From a virus, in IMG/VR virus record IMGVR_UViG_3300043399_000633, positions 32,887 to 96,886 of that record: 64,000 nucleotides of DNA; one strand, written 5' to 3'. Of the stretch, positions 5,260-45,571 are shown piece by piece (position 1 is the stretch's first letter; every line of letters begins with the position of its first letter). Position numbers and translations under genes: made by a program. The notes below the pieces were generated by a model. It was not told the DNA's origin and did no database searches. It saw only the letters and a list, made by a program, of their open reading frames with translations.

Positions 5260-5813
5260 CAACGGTAACAAGTATGCCACCTGTAACAATAGGTGGCAAT
5301 TGGCTAGAGCAGGTTAAGGCAAGTATTCCTGATCATGCTAAAGATATTAAGCTTAACTTAGATGCAGTTATTAATCGCAGTGGCCTAGATCCGGTAGATA
5401 CACATGCTATTGCATATGCGTCTGCAATTGCTGCGGGCAATGGTGGTTTGGCATTTGAAATCGAACACAATGGTCCACTATTTACTGCTGAAAAAGAACG
5501 CGAAGCAGCTAAAACAGCAGCAGCACTTATGGGTATGAATAATATATACTATCCATTTGTAGAAATGACACAAGATCCAGACTTAAAAGGACTACCACCC
5601 GGACTGCGTATGAATGCATATGCTACACACGGTGGAGTTTCAAAAAAGAAATTTGAAATGTATGCACTAGCTGCAAGTATTGTCGGTAAATGTCATTTCT
5701 GTGTTAAGAACCACTACGATGTTCTTAAGAAGGAAGGCATGACTGTGCAAGAATTACAGATGGTTGGTAAAATTGCTAGCGTTATTAATGCAGTCGGTAA
5801 AATTGCCATATAA
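5256..5813 (+). CDS. ahpD: Alkylhydroperoxidase AhpD
   Basis: PDHAKDIKLNL, MNNIYY, LRMN, CHFC..NH. Confidence 0.9.
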   Translation: MTTVTSMPPVTIGGNWLEQVKASIPDHAKDIKLNLDAVINRSGLDPVDTHAIAYASAIAAGNGGLAFEIEHNGPLFTAEKEREAAKTAAALMGMNNIYYPFVEMTQDPDLKGLPPGLRMNAYATHGGVSKKKFEMYALAASIVGKCHFCVKNHYDVLKKEGMTVQELQMVGKIASVINAVGKIAI

Positions 5814-26330: not shown

Positions 26331-26392
26331 TAGGATGCTAACAGCAAATTTTAACATCAAACTGCTAATTTGAAACGTTAAAACGCATCCTG
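26331..26392 (+). ncRNA. ACAGCAA-stem (Y-RNA-like) RNA with anticodon-loop cargo (GCT)
   Basis: TAGGATGC/GCATCCTG stem, TAACAGCAA, TCAAA-CTGCTAA-TTTGA. Confidence 0.65.
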
Positions 26393-28629: not shown

Positions 28630-28728
28630 GGGCACGTAAGCATCTAGCGGAAGATGCTACTCGCTGTGTTGCCATGAATACAGCAAATAAGGAGGAGAGT
28701 GCAGGTTCGAGTCCTGTCGTGTCCACCA
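28630..28728 (+). ncRNA. tRNA-like RNA with elongated anticodon arm
   Basis: Acceptor with G3.U70, D and T arms, ACCA; about 38-nt central arm. Confidence 0.65.
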
Positions 28729-28941
28729 AAACAATCCTTGAGTTTGACTGGTCTGCGCGCGGCTTGTTAATAGTTGGGAATGTCACTTTCGACAGTGACC
28801 TCAAGGGCCCCAAGTTATGGAGATAGAAACTGACAGATTGAATTAAGTCCTCGTGGAGGCGGATACTGGTTCAATGGTCAGCGGATAACGTGGACGGCGT
28901 ATGGGTCATGCCTATACGCAGGCGGTCTCCACCAAGATATA

Positions 28942-30191: not shown

Positions 30192-31515
30192 ATTATATTT
30201 CAGCGCATTAGCACTGGCTGCTACCACAGTCAGACGTATTGGTAGATATGCTGGGCAACAACGCCGCCCGGGTAGTGTGCTGAAATATGGTAAGCCTTAA
30301 TCCAACTGAGGAACAAAAGATCGTCAGAGTCGCGTCTGGTAAAGATCAAGTAGTTCCAATTAGGTGACTCAAGGCTGGTTCCCGGCGGGGAGCCATATTG
30401 AAGCACATTTCTTGGCTAGTAGCGGAAAGAATACTTAATCGGGTCAACGAGCCTTTACTCCTCCCGAAGAACGGTATCGTAAAGATATAAGGACCGTCTA
30501 TGTATTGTGAAGTGTGTTTCAATATGGTATGAGAGCCTCTTCAACGACCAGAGTGTCTATTATTGTTGTGGAGATAAAATAGTAGACCGATCTAGATTGG
30601 GCAGTGTCCACTACTCATAATTTGCTCATACCATTTACCATATTAAAACACATTAGCCTACCTCCACCGAGAGGTAGTTAAAGATAATGACAAGCAACAG
30701 CCAGTGTGTTTCATCGAGACATGGTCTTACTCAAGGATCGCGGTGTTGGGAAGAACGGGAATACATAACCGTCTGTAAGCAATCCTGCACATTGAGAGGG
30801 GGTGGAATTCCCCCACCATATTAAAACACATTAGCCTACCCAAGGGCTTGTAGACAGTGGTTGGAAGGATCTACACAAGTGCTATCGCAAGAGGCAGGAA
30901 CCATCCAGGTGGTGCTGGACCCTGCGGGGGCTTCGAAATCCTCAGATAAGCCGTAGTGTGTTTTAATATGATAAGGATACATATGTTGTATGATATTTGA
31001 TGGAACACCATGCTTTCTCATGTCATATAGCAAAAGTGGCAGGTTTGTAGCGTACCTGTTGTATAAAAACGCTATGATCATATTGAAACACATTGATCCT
31101 AACGATTGTTTAGGAAGACTGGCGATTGTTCAGCAGTGTGTTTCAATATGGTAAATGCGTAGGCTGATACGCAACTTTGAGTTCGGTGCGGCAAGCCACA
31201 CAGGTAAAGCTGGTGGCATGGCTCTTCAAAAATCCAGCATGCGGGAGATCAGCACCCGCTACCATAGTTCAACACATTTCTAATGTACAAACAACTACCC
31301 GGGTTAAGTTGGGAAGTGTGTTGAACTATGGTGAATAGGGCCTCGCTCACTAAGGTCCGTTAAGAGCGAGCAATGCCAGCAGGACGGATCTGAGATAGCG
31401 AAGGAAAGTGGGCAGAGGCTGGCTTCCATAGTTCAACACATTCTACCCTACCTCGGCTGGAACGGCTGTGCGAGGATAGGCGAACAGACCCGTTTGAGTG
31501 TGTTGAACTATGGAA
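30192..31515 (+). repeat. Array of 7 long-stem hairpins alternating with 89-108 nt structured spacers
   Basis: Starts at 30192, 30393, 30637, 30815, 31077, 31261, 31424; arms ACCATA(T/G)T.AA.CACATT and AGTGTG.TT.AA(T/C)ATGGT. Confidence 0.8.
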
Positions 31516-31601
31516 CTTGACACAAATTAGTAAGAGTGCTATACTGTGTATCTGTTGTTGAGTGATCAGCACAAATTCTTTAAAAACTTAATTACAATAC
31601 T

Positions 31602-31715
31602 TCTTAGTATTGTTGAGCATACTAGGCTATATCGGTATACTTAATTGGAACCGTACTCCTATGTTAGCATGACGGCTAGGCATCATGTGCTATAGTGTGT
31701 TCAACAATGTTAAGA
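31602..31715 (+). repeat. Long-stem hairpin family member
   Basis: About 23-bp stem; right arm nearly identical to that at 40285. Confidence 0.7.
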
Positions 31716-31720
31716 TTTTT

Positions 31721-31809
31721 GGGTGTTGCTCCCTGTTGCCGGCTGTAACCCGGTAGGCGTTGTTAAGCAGGGCGGTTGCCAAATGGTTCGACTCCTTCAA
31801 CACCCACCA
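31721..31809 (+). tRNA. tRNA-Tyr(GTA)-like, rewired/pseudoknotted D domain
   Basis: 8-bp acceptor, CTGTAAC loop, T loop, ACCA; no D hairpin. Confidence 0.65.
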
Positions 31810-31819
31810 AAAATTTAAT

Positions 31820-31939
31820 GGGGCCTTAGTGTAATGGTAGCATGTTTAAAGACGGTTATCCTGATAGGATACGGACAGCAAACTTTCTCAATTCCACGAT
31901 AAGGAAAAGGTCCAGGTTCGAATCCTGGGGGCTCCACCA
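31820..31939 (+). ncRNA. CCA-ended tRNA body with permuted ACAGCAA stem replacing the anticodon arm
   Basis: GGGGCCT/GGGCTCC acceptor, D and T arms, TATCCT-GAT-AGGATA-CGGACAGCAA. Confidence 0.65.
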
Positions 31940-31947
31940 AAGTTATT

Positions 31948-32023
31948 GCCCTCTTGGAGCAGCGGAGTGCTCGTCGCCCTGTCACGGCGAAGGCCACGGG
32001 TTCGAATCCCGTAGGGGGCGCCA
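31948..32023 (+). tRNA. tRNA-Asp(GTC)
   Basis: Cloverleaf, CCA. Confidence 0.9.
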
Positions 32024-32027
32024 AATT

Positions 32028-32084
32028 TAGGATGCTAACAGCAAATTTTACTCAACTTTCAATTGGTGAAAAAAATGCATCCTG
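32028..32084 (+). ncRNA. ACAGCAA-stem RNA with anticodon-loop cargo (TTC)
   Basis: TAGGATGC/GCATCCTG, CAA-CTTTCAA-TTG. Confidence 0.65.
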
Positions 32085-32095
32085 TCATTTTTAAT

Positions 32096-32169
32096 GGTGT
32101 CTTTAGTGTAGTGGAAGCAAAACTGACTGTGAATCAGTAGGCGAGGGTTCGATTCCCCAAGACACCCCA
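32096..32169 (+). tRNA. tRNA-His(GTG)
   Basis: G-1:C73, CCA. Confidence 0.85.
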
Positions 32170-32177
32170 AACAATTT

Positions 32178-32217
32178 GCCCCAGTAACTCAGTGGACTAG
32201 AGTACTGTGCTACGAAC
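32178..32217 (+). pseudogene. tRNA-Arg(ACG) 5' half truncated after the anticodon loop
   Basis: Acceptor 5' strand, D arm, CTACGAA; followed by HNH gene. Confidence 0.7.
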
Positions 32218-32252
32218 GTTGGAACTTTTGTTCGCAAATGATAAATAAGTAT

Positions 32253-32966
32253 ATGAATTACATAAAACATTATAATATACTTATTAATCGGGCAAAAATC
32301 AGATCATTGACAGAAGATTACGAAACGCACCATATTGTGCCCAAATGTTTGGGTGGAACTGATGATTTTGATAATCTTGTTAGATTGACTCCTGAGGAGC
32401 ATTATACTGCTCATCTATTGTTGGTAAAAATCTATAATAGCCCACCATTAGTATACGCCGCACAAATGATGGCGGTGAGTAGTAAACATCACCGAAGGAA
32501 TAACAAAATGTATGGCTGGCTAAAACGCCGGTACATTGAAATATGCCGCCAACGGATAGGAAATAAAAACGGTAGCTTTGGTAGACATTGGTATACCAAT
32601 CCTTCAACATTAGAAAGCGGTAAATTTGAGGATAGTAAAGTACCTGCAGGGTGGATAAAGGGCCGCAGAATTAAAAAAGAATTAAAACCTAGAAAAACTA
32701 CTACATGCGGATCATGTGGTAAGAATACAAATTCTCACAAGGCCAAATTGTGTAGTGATTGTAAACCGCTTAGTTCGGTGAGACAAGAAAAACAAAAAAT
32801 GTTTTTTTCAGATGAAGAAAAAATAAATGCTTTAAAACTTTTTGACGGAAAAATACGCCCTGCTCTGTTTCATTTAGGATTAAATGACAGTGGGGTACAT
32901 TACAGATGCATGAAAAAATTAAAAGCGTCTTTATACCCTCTGGCTACGAACCAGTTGAAAGGTTAA
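32253..32966 (+). CDS. HNH homing endonuclease
   Basis: ETHHIVPKCLGG.D...NLVRLTPEEHY.AH; paralog of 29435 gene. Confidence 0.9.
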   Translation: MNYIKHYNILINRAKIRSLTEDYETHHIVPKCLGGTDDFDNLVRLTPEEHYTAHLLLVKIYNSPPLVYAAQMMAVSSKHHRRNNKMYGWLKRRYIEICRQRIGNKNGSFGRHWYTNPSTLESGKFEDSKVPAGWIKGRRIKKELKPRKTTTCGSCGKNTNSHKAKLCSDCKPLSSVRQEKQKMFFSDEEKINALKLFDGKIRPALFHLGLNDSGVHYRCMKKLKASLYPLATNQLKG

Positions 32967-33004
32967 CTGGATACATAGAGGTTCGAATCCTCTAAGACGC
33001 GCCA
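32925..33004 (+). tRNA. tRNA-Arg(ACG)-like with D-loop element 3' of the anticodon arm
   Basis: GCGTCTT/AAGACGC-GCCA, CTGG-CTACGAA-CCAG, perfect T arm. Confidence 0.6.
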
Positions 33005-33155
33005 AATTTAAGGATAGACGGTAGATTAGAGTCCCGAGCAATCTAACATATCAGGGGATATGTGAAGAACAACGTGATTGTAAGGTCGTTAAACTCATCT
33101 ATACGAGACAATCCATCGAGGTCGGGTAACGCCGAATAGGTGGGCGCCAAATATT

Positions 33156-33230
33156 GCTGATATAACACAGAGGTAGTGTACTTTCTTGGTAAGAAAGAGG
33201 TCACTGGTTCGAATCCAGTTATCAGCACCA
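33156..33230 (+). tRNA. tRNA-Thr(GGT)
   Basis: Cloverleaf, CCA. Confidence 0.9.
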
Positions 33231-33234
33231 GTTA

Positions 33235-33346
33235 GGGGATACTTACAGCAACATCTATCAAACGATAGGTAGTTGGTTCGATTCCAACTTTTTCCACATG
33301 GGAAAATAGCTCATTAGGTAGAGCATTCGTCAAGAAATGTATCCCG
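33235..33346 (+). ncRNA. YrlA-like RNA (circularly permuted tRNA domain on ACAGCAA stem)
   Basis: GGGATAC/GTATCCC stem; order T arm, closed acceptor hairpin, D arm. Confidence 0.75.
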
Positions 33347-33459
33347 TTTTATTAGCAAGAATTCTTGCAAGAAGAAACCACTGCGACCTTAGCCTGGGCG
33401 GGCGGTATGTCAGTTACGAAACAGTTGGGTAAGAGTCCTTATGCCTAGGCACAAATTTT

Positions 33460-33587
33460 GGAGATGTGATGTAATGGTAGCATAGCACAGCAAAAACCGT
33501 ATTCTGTTTTAGCATACGTGCAGCAACATCTTAGCTATCCCTCTGTGAAAGGGCTTGACCGTGGTTCGATTCCCGGCGTCTCCACCA
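33460..33587 (+). ncRNA. CCA-ended tRNA body with permuted (G)CAGCAA stem and His-like anticodon hairpin
   Basis: GGAGATG/CGTCTCC-ACCA; CGTATTCT..AGCATACG-TGCAGCAA; CCCT-CTGTGAA-AGGG. Confidence 0.65.
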
Positions 33588-33593
33588 AACATA

Positions 33594-33669
33594 GTCCAGT
33601 TAGTTCAGCGGTATGAACGCTACCCTGACACGGTAGAGGTCACTGGTTCGATCCCAGTACTGGACACCA
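33594..33669 (+). tRNA. tRNA-Val(GAC)
   Basis: Cloverleaf, CCA. Confidence 0.9.
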
Positions 33670-33719
33670 GTAGTTGACGATAATTCCGCAGTGTAGTATA
33701 CTGCATATATCGTTTTTTA

Positions 33720-33813
33720 AAGGAGATTGACATGAAACGAGGTAAACTGTAGTGTCATCTTGAGACTCCGTATGGTCCAGGATGGCACGTTAAAGAAAAC
33801 AAAAATACGACCA
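33720..33813 (+). other. SD plus 6-codon mini-ORF (MKRGKL) plus hairpin/pseudoknot
   Basis: AAGGAG, ATG 33732, TAG 33750, 11-bp stem starting at the stop codon. Confidence 0.5.
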
Positions 33814-33814
33814 T

Positions 33815-33889
33815 CCCAGAGAAACTTTGAAGGTGAAGTCCGGCCTCTTAAGCCGAGAGAACTGAGTTCGATTCTCAGCCCTGGGACCA
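33815..33889 (+). tRNA. tRNA-Lys(CTT), atypical
   Basis: CTCTTAA loop, CCA. Confidence 0.7.
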
Positions 33890-33892
33890 TTA

Positions 33893-33968
33893 CGGAGTAT
33901 AGTGAAACGGTTATCACAGCAGACTTTTAATCTGCCAATTTTGGGTTCGAATCCCAGTGCTCCGACCA
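33893..33968 (+). tRNA. tRNA-Lys(TTT)
   Basis: Cloverleaf, CCA. Confidence 0.9.
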
Positions 33969-33976
33969 AAATATAT

Positions 33977-34052
33977 GCGGGTATAGCTCAGTCGGTAGAG
34001 CAGTAGACTTTTAATCTATTGGTCGTGGGTTCGAATCCCCCTGCCCGTACCA
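33977..34052 (+). tRNA. tRNA-Lys(TTT)
   Basis: Cloverleaf, CCA. Confidence 0.9.
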
Positions 34053-34154
34053 TATAAAAGCACATTAGTTACGTTGGGCCGAAAGCTGGAAAGGACAAGT
34101 AACCGCCAGGTTAAAACGGGAGACCCAAAGTGTGATAGTGTGCTTCTATATGGT
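34049..34154 (+). repeat. Long-stem hairpin family member overlapping both flanking tRNA ends
   Basis: ACCATATAAAAGCACATTA/TAGTGTGCTTCTATATGGT. Confidence 0.75.
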
Positions 34155-34226
34155 GATGTAGCATTAAGGTAATGTACCACCCTCATAAGGTGTCCTAAGG
34201 CGGTTCGATTCCGCCCATCACTACCA
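34152..34226 (+). tRNA. tRNA-Met/Ile2(CAT)
   Basis: Cloverleaf, CCA. Confidence 0.85.
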
Positions 34227-34241
34227 AATAAGGAGAATATC

Positions 34242-34424
34242 ATGAAAACTGTATACTTTGAGAATTATAGAAATCATGAAAAATTTGAATGTCACGACTT
34301 GAAAGATATTCGTGTCATCGACGGTATTGAATACCTCAGAGTTTTTAGATTTGGTACGCAACGAGATTGTCTTGTGCGCAAAGACCAACTTAGGAAACTC
34401 AGTAAGAATGAAAAGCCGATGTAG
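34242..34424 (+). CDS. Small hypothetical protein
   Basis: AAGGAG RBS; stop inside tRNA-Phe. Confidence 0.7.
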   Translation: MKTVYFENYRNHEKFECHDLKDIRVIDGIEYLRVFRFGTQRDCLVRKDQLRKLSKNEKPM

Positions 34425-34490
34425 CTCAGTTGGTAGAGCAGCGGACTGAAAATCCGTGTGTCACTGGTTCGAACCCGGTCTTCGGCACCA
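34415..34490 (+). tRNA. tRNA-Phe(GAA)
   Basis: Cloverleaf, CCA. Confidence 0.9.
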
Positions 34491-34497
34491 TATTAAT

Positions 34498-34583
34498 GCC
34501 CCGGTGCAGGGAATTGGCAGACCGGCAGTGTTGAGAACGCTGTGACGCAGGACGTGTGGGTTCGAATCCCACTCGGGGCACCA
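34498..34583 (+). tRNA. tRNA-Leu(GAG)
   Basis: Long variable arm, CCA. Confidence 0.85.
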
Positions 34584-34588
34584 GTTTA

Positions 34589-34690
34589 GGGATGACTACA
34601 GCAACACAAATTTCTGCAGCCATATTTTGCAGGCCAGCCCAGTAGGGGTGTGTCGTGGGTTCGACTCTCGGCTTTAGACACATCATCCAG
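34589..34690 (+). ncRNA. ACAGCAA-stem RNA with three-hairpin cargo including a T-arm-like hairpin
   Basis: GGATGA/TCATCC, CTACAGCAA, GGGTTCGACTC. Confidence 0.6.
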
Positions 34691-34698
34691 TTTTACAT

Positions 34699-34773
34699 AT
34701 CTCTGTAGTTCAATGGACAGAATGATTCTCTCCTAAAGAATAGATATCGGTTCGATTCCGGTCAGAGGTACCA
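34699..34773 (+). tRNA. tRNA-Arg(CCT)
   Basis: Cloverleaf, CCA. Confidence 0.9.
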
Positions 34774-35019
34774 AAAATCAACATCCGACCTAACGCAGGC
34801 AACTGAGGAAGTTCGGGACTTGTGGCAAGTGCGTGTGGGAGGGATGTTCATAGCATGCCGTTAATACCACCGTGATATAACAAGCAACACAAACAGAACT
34901 AGGTAACACTTGCACTATTAGTTCGGGTTGTGGCGAAGATGAATGTTAGGATAAAACAGAATCCCGGCTATGGGATGTTGATTTGACAGAAAAGAATAAA
35001 TGATTTATAATAAGAATAT

Positions 35020-40310: not shown

Positions 40311-41201
40311 CAAGGGCAGCTTAATGTCCTACACGGTATGGTTCGCCCAGCTGTGTGAAGAATAAGTCAGGTGACTGACCCAAAGGAGGTAAGCCTACAT
40401 AACTCCGCTAGTAATAGTTCATTTAAGCAAGCCTGCTCACACCCGCGAGGGTGCGTTCACTGAGAAGACCGGTGGATGTAACAATGAAGCAAGTGTGTTG
40501 GAAAGAATGTCTGTTTAAGTCCCCGCAAGGGTAAGACAGGCAGACAGAGAGTAACAGGTGGTGCTGACCTCAACACAAAACCAACTTGCGAATTGGTATG
40601 AGAAAGGGTAGTATTATGATCCGAAGGGTCGCACCTAAGGGTTGTAGTGCAGTATGAGTGGTTAGTGGGCATGTAGTAATACATGTACACCGATCGCAAA
40701 ATACGACTGAGTAGTCCGCGAGACAAAAGGTACGTGGTGTGTTGTATTGAGTAGAGCAAAACTTTATTCAGCAACTGAGGCAGCACATCATAGTAGGTCA
40801 AATGTAGATCAATGGTAGATCGTCTGTATGATGAACAGAATGCTGTCGGTTCAAGTCCGATCATTTTAACAAAAACGCAAAGACTGCCTCGGTTGTATGT
40901 GAAAAACATCTAATACTTGACTCTTCGGAGAATCAAGTCTGACGTAACTCGCAAGGTGAAATCAGTTTATGCAGGATATTTCGTAGCCCGCAAGGCTTAA
41001 TGGACCGCAAGTTCAACGGAATGGAAAGCGTAGAATAGCATACAATGTCAAGTCTACTGCCTGACTCTAAACGGCGATGTTGGTAACAGACTAGGTTACT
41101 GTGTAATAACAGGGCTTAGTGGATATCTAGAGAAGGTTGGCTCGCAAGGCTAACTATAATGCTAGAGGTGTTACTCGGTAAGGATGTAATCTCAGTCCTC
41201 C
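40311..41201 (+). ncRNA. GOLLD-like giant ncRNA with embedded tRNA-like domain (40797..40870)
   Basis: About 890 nt without a plus-strand ORF, many GNRA hairpins (CGCAAG/CGCGAG), embedded cloverleaf, phage tRNA-cluster context; recognised by eye. Confidence 0.7.
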
Positions 41202-42784: not shown

Positions 42785-42942
42785 AGGATCGGTACAGCAA
42801 CATTCTGCTATTATAGTGAATGGTCTGGATACGGTATGGTGTTAGCTGGAGGGGTCACCCTGTGAAGGCTAACATTGAAATACTACCGGACGAACTCAGA
42901 GTGATGGCCTGAGTATAATAAAAGCAGTCGAAAACGATCCTG
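42785..42942 (+). ncRNA. ACAGCAA-stem RNA with large multibranch cargo
   Basis: AGGATCG/CGATCCT, GTACAGCAA. Confidence 0.7.
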
Positions 42943-42954
42943 TTGTTTTTGTTT

Positions 42955-43188
42955 TAGGATGATTACAGCAAACTAAAAAAAATATCTACTCCAGTTAATG
43001 CAGTAGAAGATGGCCCGGAAGGCAAGTGGAAACACTTCTAGTAGAAATACTAGCGTTAAAGGAACTGATGACCTTGGAAAGACAAGTATGCGCCATCGCA
43101 GACGCAAGGATGGATAGGCTTGAGGAACTGAACCGATGTACTGGGGATGAGGTCAAGCAGAAAATAAAAACCAGTTCCGTTCATCCTG
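42955..43188 (+). ncRNA. ACAGCAA-stem RNA with large multi-hairpin cargo
   Basis: TAGGATGA/TCATCCTG, TTACAGCAA. Confidence 0.7.
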
Positions 43189-43197
43189 TTAGATTAA

Positions 43198-43259
43198 TTG
43201 AATGCTAACAGCAATTTTTAAAAACTCAAATCGCAACTTTGATCTAAAAACGCATTCAG
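43198..43259 (+). ncRNA. ACAGCAA-stem RNA abutting the RBS of the Ro60-like gene
   Basis: TTGAATGC/GCATTCAG, TAACAGCAA, TCAAA-TCGCAAC-TTTGA. Confidence 0.7.
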
Positions 43260-43272
43260 AAAGGAAAATAAA

Positions 43273-44688
43273 ATGAACGCATTTGTTAACGCAGTAGCAA
43301 ACCAAGAAGCACGTACCGCTAACGGTATGAAGGCTCGTAAGTCTAGTGCTAACGCACTGGTCGATCTGTTCTACAACATCGGTGCAAGCCGTGGTAAGAA
43401 CATTGTTCCGGCATTCACTGCTGCCTATGTCCAAGATAAGGACTTGGCATTGCGTATCGCATTGTGGGCGCGTGATGCCCGTAGTGGTGCAGGTGAACGT
43501 CAACTGTTCCGTGATATCTTGACTCATCTTGAAAAGACTGATCCCGATGCGGCAGTTCGTTTGATGAACAAGATTCCTGAACTTGGTCGTTTTGATGACC
43601 TGTTGGTCTTCAAGTCTAAGGACATGAAGGCTAAGGCTTACACGCTGCTTGGTGACAACCTTCGTGCTAAGAATGGACTTGCGGCAAAGTGGACTCCTCG
43701 TAAGGGTGAAGTCGCACGTGAAATCCGTGAATTCTTTGGCATGACTCCAAAGCAATACCGTAAGACTTTGGTTGGAATGACCAGTGTCGTTGAATCGCGA
43801 ATGTGTGCCAACGACTGGGATAACATCAACTTCAGCCACGTTCCTTCACAGGCTGCACGTATTTACAAGAAGGCGTTCAACCGTCATTCTGTAAAGTTTG
43901 CAGAATACGTACAGAAGTTGGTCAGCGGCGATAAGACCGTTAAGGTCAATGCCGGTGCAGTTTTCCCGCACGAAGTTTTGAAGGACATCGTTACCCCTTA
44001 TGGTCGTACGACCTTGGGTAAGACTGAGTTGGATCACTTGACCGCTCAGTGGGATGCGCTTCCTAACTACATGAACGATGCGAACATTCTGCCTATGGTA
44101 GACGTTTCGGGTTCTATGACCTGCCCTGCAGGCAAGGACACTAGCGTTACCTGCTTGAATGTTGCAGTATCGTTGGGTCTGTATCTTGCTGATAAGAACA
44201 AGGGTGCCTTCAAGGATACTTTCTTGACTTTCAGCGGCTCACCTGAACTGTTGACCCTAAAGGGCAACATTGTTCAAAAGGTTGATCAAATGATCAAGTC
44301 TAAGTGGGCAATGGATACTAACCTGCACAAGGCTTTCGACAAGATCCTAAGCGTGGCTGTTGCGAACAATGTTCCTGACACTGACATGCCTAAGATGGTG
44401 TTGATCCTTTCGGACATGCAGTTCAACCAATGTGTTGATCACGATGATTCTGCTATGCAGATGATCGAACGCAAGTACCGTAACGCAGGTTACACTGTGC
44501 CTAGCGTGGTCTTCTGGAACCTAAACTCAAGTGGTAACGTTCCAGTCAAGAGTGACAAGTCTGGTGCGGCTCTAGTCTCTGGCTTCAGCCCAAGCATCAT
44601 GGCAAGCATTCTTGGTGCAGACCCTCAGGAGTTCACTCCTGAAGGCATGATGTTGAAGACCATCATGGCAGATCGCTACAACTGCTAA
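43273..44688 (+). CDS. Ro60/TROVE-like RNA-binding protein (DUF2828-type) with C-terminal vWA domain
   Basis: RD.R.G.GER..F, AKW.PR, Y+K.L, DVSGSM MIDAS, FLTFS..P, ILSDMQF, FWNL, SGFSP. Confidence 0.8.
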   Translation: MNAFVNAVANQEARTANGMKARKSSANALVDLFYNIGASRGKNIVPAFTAAYVQDKDLALRIALWARDARSGAGERQLFRDILTHLEKTDPDAAVRLMNKIPELGRFDDLLVFKSKDMKAKAYTLLGDNLRAKNGLAAKWTPRKGEVAREIREFFGMTPKQYRKTLVGMTSVVESRMCANDWDNINFSHVPSQAARIYKKAFNRHSVKFAEYVQKLVSGDKTVKVNAGAVFPHEVLKDIVTPYGRTTLGKTELDHLTAQWDALPNYMNDANILPMVDVSGSMTCPAGKDTSVTCLNVAVSLGLYLADKNKGAFKDTFLTFSGSPELLTLKGNIVQKVDQMIKSKWAMDTNLHKAFDKILSVAVANNVPDTDMPKMVLILSDMQFNQCVDHDDSAMQMIERKYRNAGYTVPSVVFWNLNSSGNVPVKSDKSGAALVSGFSPSIMASILGADPQEFTPEGMMLKTIMADRYNC

Positions 44689-44768: not shown

Positions 44769-44987
44769 ATGATGTACAAGATAAATGAATTAGAATTTTT
44801 AGACTTAGAGTCCGCAATGGACTATGCTAAGTCATTGAACGAATTTGTTACCATTGTGGGTGACGGGTTCGAAGTTTGTGGTCGATTCGGAGTAGATTCA
44901 GTACGTGACGGTAAGTGCCCAGATGGCATTGCATATGACTGGAACAAGGCTAGTCGAATCGGCCGTGTAAGAAAGGAGAGAGTATAA
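44769..44987 (+). CDS. Hypothetical protein
   Basis: Follows promoter; coupled to next gene. Confidence 0.7.
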   Translation: MMYKINELEFLDLESAMDYAKSLNEFVTIVGDGFEVCGRFGVDSVRDGKCPDGIAYDWNKASRIGRVRKERV

Positions 44988-45571
44988 TGCCTAGCGTTTT
45001 CTTAGTAAGCGACACTCACTTTGGTCATCTCGGGGTCTGCAAGTTCATGGGGCCCGACGGTGTGACTAAGCTCCGTCCTTGGGATACTCCTGAGGATATG
45101 GACGAAGAAATGATCAAGCGTTGGAATGAAACCGTAAAGCCCAACGACAAAGTTTATCACCTCGGTGATGTTGTAATCAATCGTAAAGCCCTCAAGACTC
45201 TTGCGAGGCTGAACGGTGATAAGATCCTGATCAAGGGCAACCATGATATCTTTAAACTTGAGGAATACCTTCCTTACTTTAGGGATATTCGTGCATATCA
45301 TGTGATGAATGGATGCATCCTCAGTCATATTCCTATGCACACTGACAACCTTGGTCGTTTCGGTACTAACATTCATGGACATACTCATGCACACCGTGTC
45401 ATGCGTGACAATGGATACCGTGGTCAAGAGATTGATCCTAGGTTTCATTGTGTCTGTGTAGAACAAACTGACTTTAGACCTATCCTCTTTGAAGATGTTG
45501 TAAAGAGGATCAAAGAAGAAGGTGGACAAGTTAGCATGAAAAGTCGAGAAGAGGTCTATGGACCAGGATAA
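44987..45571 (+). CDS. Calcineurin-like metallophosphoesterase
   Basis: DTHFGH, LGD, GNHD, SHIP, HGHTH. Confidence 0.9.
   Translation: MPSVFLVSDTHFGHLGVCKFMGPDGVTKLRPWDTPEDMDEEMIKRWNETVKPNDKVYHLGDVVINRKALKTLARLNGDKILIKGNHDIFKLEEYLPYFRDIRAYHVMNGCILSHIPMHTDNLGRFGTNIHGHTHAHRVMRDNGYRGQEIDPRFHCVCVEQTDFRPILFEDVVKRIKEEGGQVSMKSREEVYGPG

What the first reader, a model, noticed from the sequence alone, without database searches (positions are those of the whole stretch)
31820..33587. Inside-out Y RNAs: CCA-ended tRNA bodies whose anticodon arm is replaced by the permuted handle
Seen: 31820..31939 and 33460..33587 have an open acceptor stem, ACCA, D and T arms. The centre holds the handle with strand order reversed and closed by a loop (TATCCT-GAT-AGGATA-CGG-ACAGCAA; CGTATTCT-GTTTT-AGCATACG-T-GCAGCAA), then a displaced 7-nt-loop hairpin (AC-GAT-AA; CT-GTG-AA). 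31820 has G3.U70 and A73, the AlaRS identity elements. Inference: circular permutants of the YrlA-like RNA that could be aminoacylated while tethered to the Ro-like protein.
Basis: partly seen in the sequence, partly recalled or inferred. Interest (0 to 1): 0.8.

Follow-up and report, generated by a model that had tools for sequence, protein, structure and literature searches.

The report
tRNA-shaped RNAs with Ro-type handle
Two odd "tRNA genes" in a large freshwater phage are conserved tRNA-shaped small RNAs that carry, as a side arm on the anticodon stem, the same docking motif found on the small RNAs encoded beside the phage's Ro60-shaped protein, so they are most likely back-to-front relatives of the tRNA-mimicking Y RNAs and not working, intron-bearing or decaying tRNAs.

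Summary
Both elements (31820-31939, 33460-33587) pass Rfam's tRNA model, with 57 and 66 nt in place of the central 11-13 nt of the anticodon arm. They have a 7-bp acceptor stem, A73, CCA, and D and T arms.

The insert carries the window's "stem + 3 nt + ACAGCAA" handle with strand order reversed and closed by a loop. The 33460 copy is degenerate.

A covariance model finds 20 such RNAs in phage contigs (71-141 bits; ordinary tRNAs reach at most 47). Acceptor, D, T and anticodon stems all covary.

A 40-54 nt handle module sits in the 5' strand of a retained 5-bp anticodon stem, usually between nt 29 and 30.

The distal loop is 7-9 nt and differs among near-identical orthologs, so decoding and an intron are both unlikely.

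The neighbouring DUF2828 protein is predicted to fold like Ro60. Handle motifs lie within 700 nt upstream of its gene in 63 of 65 related loci.

In the 31820 type, the tRNA-Ala-like acceptor end (G3.U70, A73) is invariant in 24 variants. Charging remains untested.

This scan has reported the same class on at least seven other genomes. I found no paper or Rfam family for it.

The parts
31820..31939 (+). Element 1: tRNA-shaped RNA with a closed handle side arm and encoded CCA
   Evidence: Rfam tRNA 40.7 bits. Own model R1 123.7 bits. 24 distinct orthologous variants in viral and metagenome contigs.
31820..31826 (+). Element 1 acceptor 5' strand GGGGCCT. It pairs with 31929-31935 (GGGCTCC), giving G3.U70 and U7.G66. 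A73 is at 31936 and CCA at 31937-31939.
   Evidence: Sequence. The 3' strand and A73 are invariant in 24 variants, although the search pattern fixed only the 5' strand.
31829..31843 (+). Element 1 D arm (GTGT-AATGGTA-GCAT), with A14, A15, G18 and G19
   Evidence: Rfam alignment. D stem is 100% paired in 19 sequences, and 2 pairs change on both sides.
31845..31847 (+). Element 1 anticodon-stem nt 27-29 (TTT), pairing with 31905-31907 (AAA)
   Evidence: The family shows TTT/AAA, CGT/ACG, CTT/AAG, ACT/AGT and CAG/CTG at these positions.
31848..31893 (+). Element 1 insert of 46 nt: A-rich strand, closed handle, spacer, ACAGCAA, linker ending in TT
   Evidence: Parse of 20 family members gives inserts of 40-54 nt at the same place.
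31857..31871 (+). Element 1 closed handle helix TATCCT-GAT-AGGATA
   Evidence: RNAalifold predicts this hairpin on A2. The helix is 92.5% paired, and 3 pairs change on both sides. The same 5' strand, AGGAT(G/A), is used by the open handles.
31875..31881 (+). Element 1 heptamer ACAGCAA, 3 nt after the handle 5' strand
   Evidence: Spacing is the same as in the open handles.
31892..31907 (+). Element 1 distal anticodon-like hairpin TTCC-ACGATAA-GGAA(A). The loop has C33.
   Evidence: The stem covaries (TTTCC/GGAAA becomes TTTGC/GCAAA in L287), and the loop takes at least 10 forms of 7-9 nt among orthologs.
31912..31928 (+). Element 1 T arm CCAGG-TTCGAAT-CCTGG
   Evidence: Five covarying versions of the stem occur among orthologs.
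33460..33587 (+). Element 2: tRNA-shaped RNA with a degenerate closed handle and encoded CCA
   Evidence: Rfam tRNA 30.8 bits. R1 81.6 bits. Orthologs are L202:7489-7616 (81.1 bits) and L190:1-88.
33498..33526 (+). Element 2 closed handle CGTATTCT-GTTTT-AGCATACG, spacer T, then GCAGCAA
   Evidence: Sequence. There is one T.C mismatch. L202 is identical here, and L190 has the consensus form.
33487..33493 (+). Element 2 extra ACAGCAA heptamer, directly 3' of the D arm
   Evidence: Also present in L202. Its role is unknown.
33539..33553 (+). Element 2 anticodon-like hairpin CCCT-CTGTGAA-AGGG
   Evidence: The orthologs have CTGTAAA (L202) and CTGTCAA (L190).
33233..33350 (+). YrlA-type RNA on the same handle: handle open, order T arm, closed acceptor, D arm. 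This is the permutation partner of elements 1 and 2.
   Evidence: Rfam RF02553 gives a partial hit of 29.9 bits over model positions 27-81. MFE z-score is -4.65.
43273..44688 (+). DUF2828/DUF7788 protein with a predicted Ro60 fold, the presumed partner of the handle
   Evidence: Pfam. AlphaFold2 model pLDDT 93. The Foldseek top 13 PDB matches are all Ro60/TROVE, with TM 0.47-0.66. D277, S279 and S281 are invariant in 73 homologs.
42785..43260 (+). Three tandem open-handle RNAs directly upstream of the protein gene
   Evidence: In related loci, 63 of 65 have at least one handle motif within 700 nt upstream of the gene.

Best explanation
These are non-decoding, tRNA-shaped small RNAs that act as partner RNAs of the phage's Ro60-fold protein (DUF2828/DUF7788, 43273-44688).

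Each is transcribed within the tRNA island. Because it keeps a full acceptor stem, D arm, T arm and the tertiary-contact bases, it is presumably matured like a tRNA: 5' end by RNase P, and a 3' CCA that is either encoded or added.

A conserved helix-plus-ACAGCAA module branches from the 5' strand of the anticodon stem and is the docking site for the protein. The RNA therefore couples a Ro-like ring to a body that tRNA-binding factors can recognise. It has the same parts as the YrlA-type RNA on the same handle, but the handle is closed and the acceptor end is free.

Shown here:
- the structure
- its conservation and covariation
- the shared handle
- the genomic linkage of that handle to the gene
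- the predicted Ro60 fold

Inferred:
- binding of the protein
- tRNA-type processing
- what the particle does. The most likely roles are tRNA surveillance or protection, or acting as a decoy in the contest over tRNAs.

Whether the 31820 type is charged with alanine is open.
For: 1. tRNA frame. Rfam tRNA scores are 40.7 and 30.8 bits. U8, A14, G18, G19, the T loop and 7-bp acceptor stems are kept.

2. A real family. Model R1 gives 20 matches at 71-141 bits, against at most 47 bits for ordinary tRNAs. All 7 acceptor pairs change on both sides and 99% of cells pair. The covariation score is 0.494 against 0.137 in shuffles, reached by 0 of 500 shuffles. RNAalifold independently recovers the acceptor, D, handle hairpin, anticodon-like hairpin and T helices.

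3. Side arm, not replacement. Nt 27-29 and 41-43 covary across the insert.

4. Same handle as the open forms. Both have AGGATN, then 3 nt, then ACAGCAA. The motif occurs 228 times on the gene strand and 4 times on the other strand in 946 kb. It lies within 700 nt upstream of the gene in 63 of 65 loci.

5. Protein. pLDDT is 93, and the top 13 PDB fold matches are Ro60/TROVE.

6. Not a decoder. Orthologs that share one acceptor have at least 10 different loops of 7-9 nt, and 31820 has C33.

7. CCA follows each genome's own habit. L162 encodes no CCA on its tRNAs or on its two elements.

8. Precedent. M. smegmatis YrlA is cut by RNase P and receives CCA in vivo (PMC4201824).
Against: - No experiment shows that the RNA exists with these ends, or that the protein binds it.
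- The protein gene lies 9.7-11.3 kb away from the two elements, not beside them.
- Single-sequence folding does not favour the cloverleaf (z-scores -1.1 and +0.1). That is common for tRNAs, but it gives no support.
- The handle of 33460 is degenerate: a mismatch, a 1-nt spacer and GCAGCAA.
- L044 keeps the hairpin but lacks the heptamer.
- Four of the five fragmentary records checked that hold such RNAs show no DUF2828 gene in the part available.
Confidence: 0.68

Rival explanations
1. They are working tRNAs with an extra arm. They are charged (alanine for the 31820 type), delivered to the ribosome and read codons through the retained anticodon-like loop. The outcome could be deliberate mis-sense or, with 8-nt loops, frameshift decoding, possibly switched by the Ro-like protein.
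For: The full tRNA frame, CCA and a 5-bp anticodon stem are kept. Many loops read Y/A-U-NNN-A-A. G3.U70 and A73 are invariant in 24 variants of the 31820 type.
Against: Within one acceptor type the 'anticodon' changes freely. The 31820 type shows GAT, GTT, TGA, TGT, GTC and others, and the 33460 type shows GTG, GTA and GTC. Loop length also varies from 7 to 9 nt. 31820 has C33. The identity elements expected for the nominal anticodons (a long arm for Ser, G73 for Asp, from general knowledge) are absent. The window already has ordinary tRNAs for these codons.
Confidence: 0.1
2. They are tRNA genes interrupted by an intron that is removed to give ordinary tRNAs.
For: The insert lies inside the anticodon arm. 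Short repeats at its borders (TT...TT in 31820) make several excision registers possible.
Against: - At 40-54 nt the insert is far too small for a group I or II intron, and Rfam gives no intron match.
- It lies in the stem (29|30), not at 37/38, and I saw no bulge-helix-bulge.
- Its sequence is the conserved handle, found more than 200 times elsewhere as a free-standing RNA end.
- The product would have non-conserved anticodons.
- Contigs from two metatranscriptome libraries cross the insert unbroken, and no joint was found in four runs. This is weak evidence, because DNA carry-over is possible.
Confidence: 0.05
3. The helix plus ACAGCAA is not a protein handle but a processing or structural signal of the RNA island, for example a nuclease site. 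Its link to the DUF2828 gene would then be only shared location.
For: The island holds other families of closing stems around varied cargos (notes of this scan). No binding data exist.
Against: The motif keeps its place directly upstream of the gene in 63 of 65 loci whose proteins are 73-89% identical to the window's. Such RNAs also co-occur with a 49%-identical homolog in another record. Bacterial Y RNA genes lie beside rsr in just this way (PMC4201824). One member has full YrlA architecture.
Confidence: 0.1
4. They are decaying tRNA pseudogenes hit by an insertion.
For: ARAGORN does not call them. 33460 has a bulged T stem and a degenerate handle.
Against: Compensatory changes occur in every helix. 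The insert is conserved across contigs with 77-100% identity and across ten different acceptor types.
Confidence: 0.02

Closest known systems
YrlA-type Y RNAs with Ro60/Rsr in bacteria and mycobacteriophages (Rfam RF02553; Chen et al. 2014, PMC4201824)
   Same: A tRNA-like body (acceptor, D and T arms) joined through the anticodon side to a stem-bulge module for a Ro-type ring protein, and encoded near that protein's gene. M. smegmatis YrlA even acquires an open, CCA-ended acceptor after RNase P cleavage.
   Different: In these elements the gene order is that of a tRNA. The handle is closed by a loop and the acceptor is open in a single chain. A 5-bp anticodon stem with a loop is kept. The motif is ACAGCAA, not GNCGAAN0-1G. 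The protein is DUF2828/DUF7788, not Pfam TROVE. RF02553 does not match the two elements.
D. radiodurans Yrn1 (PMC4201824)
   Same: A Y RNA in D-to-T order that keeps an anticodon-like stem-loop.
   Different: In Yrn1 the Ro-binding stem takes the place of the acceptor stem, so there is no free CCA end. Here the acceptor is free and the handle is a side arm.
Dictyostelium Class I RNAs (Rfam RF01414; Kjellin et al. 2021, PMC7919456)
   Same: The open handles of this window align to the family consensus: an end stem, then CUUACAGCAA, and a 3' end reading CUG(U). The element at 32030-32084 scores 22.2 bits. The motif positions T3, C6, C9, A10 and A11 agree.
   Different: The score is below the gathering score of 41.5. 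Class I RNAs are eukaryotic, about 60 nt, always end-paired, and reported as unique to dictyostelids. No tRNA-framed closed form is described there.
tmRNA, including the two-piece forms from permuted genes (Rfam RF04321)
   Same: A tRNA-like non-decoding RNA with a G3.U70 acceptor end that is charged with alanine. It also sets a precedent for circular permutation of a tRNA-like RNA gene.
   Different: There is no tag reading frame and there are no pseudoknots. A full D arm is present. Only weak partial hits were found (15-17 bits), and ARAGORN finds no tmRNA.
Thermus phage phiLo Ro60 with Yrl1/Yrl2 (PMC12135203; PDB 9KOP, 9L5Y)
   Same: A phage-encoded Ro60-fold protein whose stem-bulge-stem RNAs are encoded upstream of it. 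9KOP is the top fold match of the window's protein.
   Different: The phiLo RNAs have a CGAA bulge and no tRNA frame. Protein sequence identity is about 16%.

Membership tests
tRNA (Rfam RF00005) | Covariance-model score at or above the gathering score (29 bits) | tested here: met
   40.7 bits (31820-31936) and 30.8 bits (33460-33584), each with a large insertion in the anticodon arm.
tRNA (Rfam RF00005) | 7-bp acceptor stem, discriminator base, CCA end, and D and T arms with the conserved tertiary bases | tested here: met
   The acceptor stem covaries at 7 of 7 pairs.
tRNA (Rfam RF00005) | Uninterrupted 5-bp anticodon stem with a 7-nt loop, U33, and an anticodon kept among orthologs | tested here: not met
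   A 40-54 nt insert lies in the 5' strand. Loops are 7-9 nt. 31820 has C33. At least 10 loop sequences occur among 24 variants that share one acceptor.
tRNA (Rfam RF00005) | Aminoacylation and decoding | not testable with these tools
   G3.U70 and A73 are invariant in the 31820 type. That permits charging by AlaRS but does not show it.
YrlA (Rfam RF02553) | Model score at or above 69 bits; order T arm, closed acceptor, D arm between the ends of a terminal stem | tested here: not met
   RF02553 does not hit either element. The order is acceptor-D-handle-hairpin-T-acceptor. The neighbour at 33233-33350 has the YrlA order but scores only 29.9 bits.
YrlA (Rfam RF02553) | GNCGAAN0-1G motif near the 5' end (PMC4201824) | tested here: not met
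   The conserved motif is (A/T)CAGCA(A/C).
ACAGCAA-handle RNAs beside DUF2828 genes (undescribed class; relative of Rfam RF01414) | A 6-8 bp covarying helix whose 5' strand is followed after about 3 nt by ACAGCAA | tested here: met
   31820 has AGGATA-CGG-ACAGCAA. 18 of 20 family members keep (A/T)CAGCA(A/C). 33460 meets the feature only loosely (mismatch, 1-nt spacer, GCAGCAA).
ACAGCAA-handle RNAs beside DUF2828 genes (undescribed class; relative of Rfam RF01414) | [quoted passage not shown] | tested here: not met
   The helix is closed by a GNNA-type loop (GAT in 31820), and the RNA ends are those of the acceptor stem.
ACAGCAA-handle RNAs beside DUF2828 genes (undescribed class; relative of Rfam RF01414) | Co-occurrence with a DUF2828 gene | tested here: met
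   A DUF2828 gene is present in the window. It is present in the DUF2828-centred loci L044, L047, L050/51, L053 and L054. It is also in L128, L136, L156 and L190 and in the record of L129. Four short fragments show none.
Ro60 / TROVE proteins (for the 43273 protein) | HEAT-repeat ring plus vWA domain fold | tested here: met
   Model pLDDT is 93 and pTM 0.91. Full-length Foldseek matches to 2I91, 1YVP, 9KOP, 9L5Y and 2NVO have probability 1.0. This is a predicted structure.
Ro60 / TROVE proteins (for the 43273 protein) | Sequence membership in a Pfam TROVE-type family | tested here: not met
   Only PF11443 (DUF2828) and PF25043 (DUF7788) match at E <= 0.001. phmmer against PDB sequences finds no Ro60.
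Ro60 / TROVE proteins (for the 43273 protein) | MIDAS-type DxSxS in the vWA domain | tested here: met
   D277, S279 and S281 are invariant in 73 homologs. Reading them as a MIDAS motif rests on general knowledge.
tRNA introns (group I, or bulge-helix-bulge type) | An intron-family match, or a bulge-helix-bulge at the borders; a position in the anticodon loop; a spliced product | tested here: not met
   No intron family matches at E <= 5. The position is 29|30, in the stem. No joints were seen in four runs, and RNA-library contigs cross the insert.
tmRNA | Tag reading frame and pseudoknots joined to an Ala-type tRNA-like domain | tested here: not met
   ARAGORN finds none. Rfam gives only 15-17 bits on the T arm and acceptor.

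The most novel reading that the evidence does not exclude
The 31820-type RNAs are charged with alanine by the host AlaRS while bound to the phage Ro-like ring. That would give a single-chain, aminoacylated Y-like RNA. It would carry a Ro-type surveillance protein to EF-Tu, to the ribosome or to tRNA-targeting host nucleases, or would use the charged end to escape exonucleases. The closed-handle form would also be the evolutionary intermediate from which YrlA-type order arose, by tandem duplication of a handle-bearing tRNA. Tandem copies do exist in L151.
Probability: 0.2. Interest if true: 0.85.

Novelty: new variant of a known kind. Interest (0 to 1): 0.63.

Why it matters
Ro60 and its Y RNAs are a conserved but poorly understood RNA-surveillance particle. 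Why bacterial Y RNAs mimic tRNA is still an open question.

These phage RNAs show a third way of joining a tRNA body to a Ro-type handle. It is a single chain with a free, tRNA-Ala-like CCA end and a retained anticodon-like loop, and it is conserved in many uncultured freshwater phages.

They offer simple constructs for testing three things: whether the tRNA half is there for maturation and stability, for charging, or for meeting tRNA-binding factors.

They also extend the Ro/Y-RNA idea to a large protein family (DUF2828) that has no published function. Its handle motif is the one known from the unexplained Class I RNAs of Dictyostelium.

Tried and rejected
- ARAGORN does not call either element.
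- Rfam at E <= 5 over 24-46 kb gives no family for the handle apart from the weak Dictyostelium Class I match, and gives no intron family.
- Single-sequence RNAfold does not give the cloverleaf, and z-scores are weak (-1.1, +0.1). I rely on comparative evidence instead.
- The exact closed-handle pattern in IMG/VR returned at least 120 stretches. Most are chance matches in coding DNA, as expected for 17 fixed bases, and only about 15 lie in a tRNA frame.
- A stricter pattern in 185,579 species genomes gave 62 stretches and none passes model R1. I found no cellular copy, but an exact pattern is a narrow net.
- Megablast of 31000-35000 against GenBank phages found only single conserved tRNAs.
- Neither body is close to any of the window's 41 ordinary tRNAs, including its two tRNA-Ala genes.
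- I looked for loop-to-heptamer pairing (for example CTGT with ACAG in 33460, TGCT with AGCA in L128). It is not general, so I dropped it.
- An inner helix between the A-rich strand and the stretch after ACAGCAA (AAAG/CTTT in 31820) is not kept in all members, for example L050. I do not claim it.
- Laying four runs gave only contigs. There were no ends, no strand information and no joints. Parts of the stretch without cover say nothing.
- Literature searches for DUF2828 found no functional study.
- I considered tmRNA, a pseudogene and an intron, and rejected each for the reasons given under the rival explanations.
Full report
**Setting**

The window is the last 64 kb of a 96,886-bp virus record from freshwater metagenomes, estimated to be about 27% complete. 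Positions 25.2-42.5 kb form an RNA island on the + strand. It holds 41 tRNA genes called by ARAGORN, a GOLLD RNA (226 bits) and many unassigned structured stretches.

**Observation**

- 31820-31936 scores 40.7 bits.
- 33460-33584 scores 30.8 bits.

In each alignment the acceptor stem, D arm, T arm and discriminator match fully. The centre of the anticodon arm is replaced by 57 and 66 nt.

Read directly, 31820 has an acceptor GGGGCCT/GGGCTCC with G3.U70, then A73 and CCA. Its centre reads TATCCT-GAT-AGGATA-CGG-ACAGCAA, followed by the hairpin TTCC-ACGATAA-GGAA.

33460 has an acceptor GGAGATG/CGTCTCC, A73 and CCA. Its centre reads CGTATTCT-GTTTT-AGCATACG-T-GCAGCAA, followed by CCCT-CTGTGAA-AGGG. 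That helix has a T.C mismatch. There is also a second ACAGCAA just after the D arm. So the description is accurate.

**The handle**

The heptamer RCAGCAA is enriched in the window: 34 occurrences against 17.7 expected, a count reached by none of 100 shuffles. It clusters on the + strand of the island.

In its usual form it follows, after 3 nt, the 5' strand of a 6-8 bp helix that joins the two ends of an RNA. The typical form is AGGATG-NNN-ACAGCAA ... CATCCT-GT. Examples lie at 26332, 32029, 33236, 42785, 42956 and 43199.

Across 80 related loci I collected 187 distinct open handles. Their helix covaries, for example:
- AGGATG/CATCCT
- AGAATG/CATTCT
- TGAATG/CATTCA
- AGGATC/GATCCT
- GGGATA/TATCCC

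One open-handle RNA (33233-33350) has the YrlA order of T arm, closed acceptor, D arm. It matches the core of Rfam YrlA at 29.9 bits.

In the two elements under study the same 5' strand, spacer and heptamer are present. However, the 3' strand comes first and a short loop joins the outer end of the helix. Following the chain from the D arm gives handle 3' strand, loop, handle 5' strand, ACAGCAA, hairpin, T arm. This is the connectivity of the YrlA-type RNA, opened at the acceptor and closed at the handle.

**A conserved family**

An exact-pattern scan of IMG/VR mostly returned chance hits in coding DNA. About fifteen, though, lay in the same tRNA frame.

I built a covariance model from eleven of them (R1). 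It separates the class cleanly: 20 matches at 71-141 bits, against at most 47 bits for the hundreds of ordinary tRNAs in the same loci.

On the 20-sequence alignment:
- 96.7% of cells pair.
- 15 of 22 pairs change on both sides.
- The covariation score is 0.494, against 0.137 in shuffles (reached by 0 of 500) and at most 0.12 for slid partners.
- All seven acceptor pairs covary. There are about ten different acceptor stems around a nearly constant core.

RNAalifold, run without my structure, recovers the acceptor, D, handle hairpin, a hairpin before the variable region, and T. Single-sequence folding gives no support (z-scores -1.1 and +0.1), so the case rests on comparison.

**Correction to the anatomy**

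I parsed each member. The three bases after N26 pair with the three bases before the 4-nt variable region, and these pairs covary across the insert: TTT/AAA, CGT/ACG (three members), CTT/AAG (three), ACT/AGT (three) and CAG/CTG. The next two pairs are the conserved CC/GG of the TTCC/GGAA hairpin.

The RNAs therefore keep a normal 5-bp anticodon stem and a loop. The 40-54 nt handle module is inserted in the 5' strand of that stem. In most members the insertion point is between nt 29 and 30. In 33460 it is at 27|28 or 28|29. In the TT/AA types it is ambiguous, because of short repeats at the borders.

The insert consists of:
- an A-rich strand ending in GG(T/C)
- (T/G)ATCCT
- a GNNA-type loop (GAT in 31820)
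- AGGAT(A/C)
- usually CAG
- (A/T)CAGCA(A/C)
- a variable linker ending in TT

So the anticodon arm is not replaced, and the 7-nt-loop hairpin is not displaced.

**Is the loop an anticodon?**

Probably not. Many loops do look the part, reading A/C-U-NNN-A-A. But loop lengths are 7, 8 or 9 nt, and 31820 has C33.

RNAs with one and the same acceptor also carry different triplets. To widen the sample I searched viral and metagenome contigs with a pattern that fixes only the 5' acceptor strand and D arm of the 31820 type. This gave 24 distinct full variants at 77-100% pairwise identity. Among them the loop takes at least ten forms, including:
- ACGATAA
- ACGTTAA
- ATTGAAA
- ATTGTAA
- ATTTGAA
- ATGTCAA
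- ATGATAA
- ATATGAA
- ACTATGAA(G)
- ATTGTCAA

The 33460 type reads GTG here, GTA in L202 and GTC in L190. A decoder could not tolerate this, and a spliced product would be no better.

The hairpin stem itself is real. L287 has TTTGC/GCAAA in place of TTTCC/GGAAA.

**Intron?**

The insert is far too short for a self-splicing intron, and no intron family matches. It lies in a stem, and its sequence is a motif found hundreds of times as a free-standing RNA end.

In two metatranscriptome libraries, contigs of 181 and 233 nt cover 31729-31909 and 31798-31942 without a break. No joint was reported in any of four runs. These are contigs and DNA carry-over is possible, so this is only a weak hint that the RNA keeps its insert.

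**The acceptor end**

In the 24 variants of the 31820 type, the 3' acceptor strand GGGCTCC and A73 never change. The search did not constrain them. Both wobble pairs, G3.U70 and U7.G66, are never converted to Watson-Crick pairs. By contrast, the T stem occurs in five compensated versions, and only 55% of the free columns are invariant.

From memory, and not checked here, the first five pairs plus A73 equal those of E. coli tRNA-Ala. This points to selection on the sequence of the acceptor end and not only on its pairing. It fits recognition by AlaRS, but equally by another factor.

It holds for this subfamily alone. In the 20-sequence family alignment, only the five members of this subfamily (5 of 19 rows with the 5' end present) have G3.U70. 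33460 has A3-U70.

CCA is encoded in most members. In L162, whose ordinary tRNA genes lack CCA, the two elements lack it too. This suggests the elements are handled like the genome's own tRNAs.

**The protein**

ORF 43273-44688 matches Pfam DUF2828 and DUF7788, not TROVE. It has no sequence match to solved structures.

I built an AlphaFold2 model on 73 diverse homologs (pLDDT 93, pTM 0.91). Its best 13 PDB fold matches are all full-length Ro60/TROVE entries: Xenopus and human Ro60, D. radiodurans Rsr and Thermus phage phiLo Ro60. Their TM scores are 0.47-0.66 and probability is 1.0. D277, S279 and S281 are invariant, as expected for a vWA metal site. So "Ro-like" holds at the level of predicted fold.

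Linkage to the handle is strong:
- In 946 kb around 80 homologs (73-89% identity), the handle motif occurs 228 times on the gene's strand and 4 times on the other.
- 63 of 65 loci have at least one copy within 700 nt upstream of the gene.
- Closed-handle RNAs lie 5-11 kb upstream on the same strand in the window and in L044, L047, L050/51, L053, L054, L128, L136 and L156.
- L129's record holds a 49%-identical homolog.

**Mechanism**

The best-supported reading is a tRNA-shaped partner RNA of a Ro-type protein. The tRNA frame gives it tRNA-style maturation and stability, and offers a surface for tRNA-binding factors. The side arm docks the ring.

Chen et al. (PMC4201824) showed that YrlA RNAs mimic tRNA. 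They also showed that M. smegmatis YrlA is cut by RNase P in its closed acceptor and receives CCA in vivo, which yields a two-piece Y RNA with an open CCA end. They raised the possibility of aminoacylation and of protection from exonucleases. The RNAs here encode that state directly, in one chain.

What the particle does is inference. In a phage with more than 40 tRNA genes, the natural candidates are surveillance or protection of tRNAs, or decoying of tRNA-targeting host enzymes. Nothing here tests these.

**Comparison and novelty**

The class differs from its nearest relatives as follows:
- From YrlA: gene order, motif, protein family, and the retained anticodon stem-loop.
- From Yrn1: Yrn1 places the Ro stem at the acceptor.
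- From tmRNA: there is no tag frame and there are no pseudoknots.

The open handles align to the consensus of Dictyostelium Class I RNAs, which is an end stem, CUUACAGCAA and a 3' CUG. The score is 22.2 bits, below the gathering score. The conserved motif positions agree with Kjellin et al. (PMC7919456). A note of this scan gave me that lead.

I found no paper on DUF2828 function and no Rfam family for the closed form.

Notes of this scan report the same closed-handle, tRNA-framed class on at least seven other genomes, and the wider DUF2828 handle system on about 200 genomes. My analysis was done before I read those notes, and it agrees with them.

I rate this a new variant of a known kind: a Ro/Y-RNA particle with a tRNA-mimic RNA.

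**Verdict**

- The aminoacylation idea is open, with one suggestive piece of evidence for the 31820 type.

Noticed in passing
window 32178-33005: A tRNA-like gene appears split by about 790 nt. The insert holds a 242-aa ORF (32238-32966), which has no Pfam hit at E <= 0.001. The 3' part at 32925-33004 scores 24.9 bits with R1. No group I intron family matched at E <= 5.
   Followed up: partly
window 28632-28731: A CCA-ended RNA with acceptor GGGCACG/CGTGTCC (G3.U70, A73) and a T arm, but no recognisable D arm. It contains ACAGCAA at 28680 without the usual AGGAT helix. No Rfam tRNA hit; there is a weak beta-tmRNA fragment hit at 28701-28766 (13.8 bits).
   Followed up: no
window 40734-41198: GOLLD RNA (226 bits, full length) with a tRNA-Ile(GAT) gene (40798-40870) lying inside its span.
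   Followed up: no
window 32030-32084, and the other open handles (26332, 43199): Open-handle RNAs align to the consensus of Dictyostelium Class I RNA (RF01414: end stem, CUUACAGCAA, 3' CUG) at 22.2 bits, below the gathering score. That family is reported as unique to dictyostelids.
   Followed up: partly
L117, minus strand, around 5646-5700 of the reversed locus: A minimal closed handle with no tRNA body: GGGGC-CAAAATAA-ATCCT-GTCA-AGGAT-TTTA-ACAGCAA-TTTAT-GCCCC, directly after a tRNA.
   Followed up: no
L151:8597-8818 (minus strand): Two closed-handle tRNA-shaped RNAs in tandem, 5 nt apart. The second has a degenerate T loop (TTTAGCGAT). Such tandems are the arrangement from which a circular permutation to YrlA order could arise.
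   Followed up: no
window 33351-33459: About 110 nt lie between the YrlA-type RNA and element 2. They are absent in L202, where the two RNAs abut. Content unexplained.
   Followed up: no
L205, L207, L211, L215, L220, L229, L244, L254 (OZ242322.1, a Thermodesulfobacteriota MAG): Eight separate stretches of one chromosome match the closed-handle pattern, but none passes the RNA model. This is probably an unrelated repeat family.
   Followed up: no
window 44987-45571: A calcineurin-like phosphoesterase (Metallophos_2, E 4e-7) is encoded 300 nt downstream of the Ro-like gene. It is a possible RNA-end-healing partner.
   Followed up: no
L044:567-691: A family member that keeps the closed helix (CATCCT-GGCA-AGGATG) but has TTTTCCGCAC in place of the CAG-ACAGCAA stretch.
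   Followed up: no
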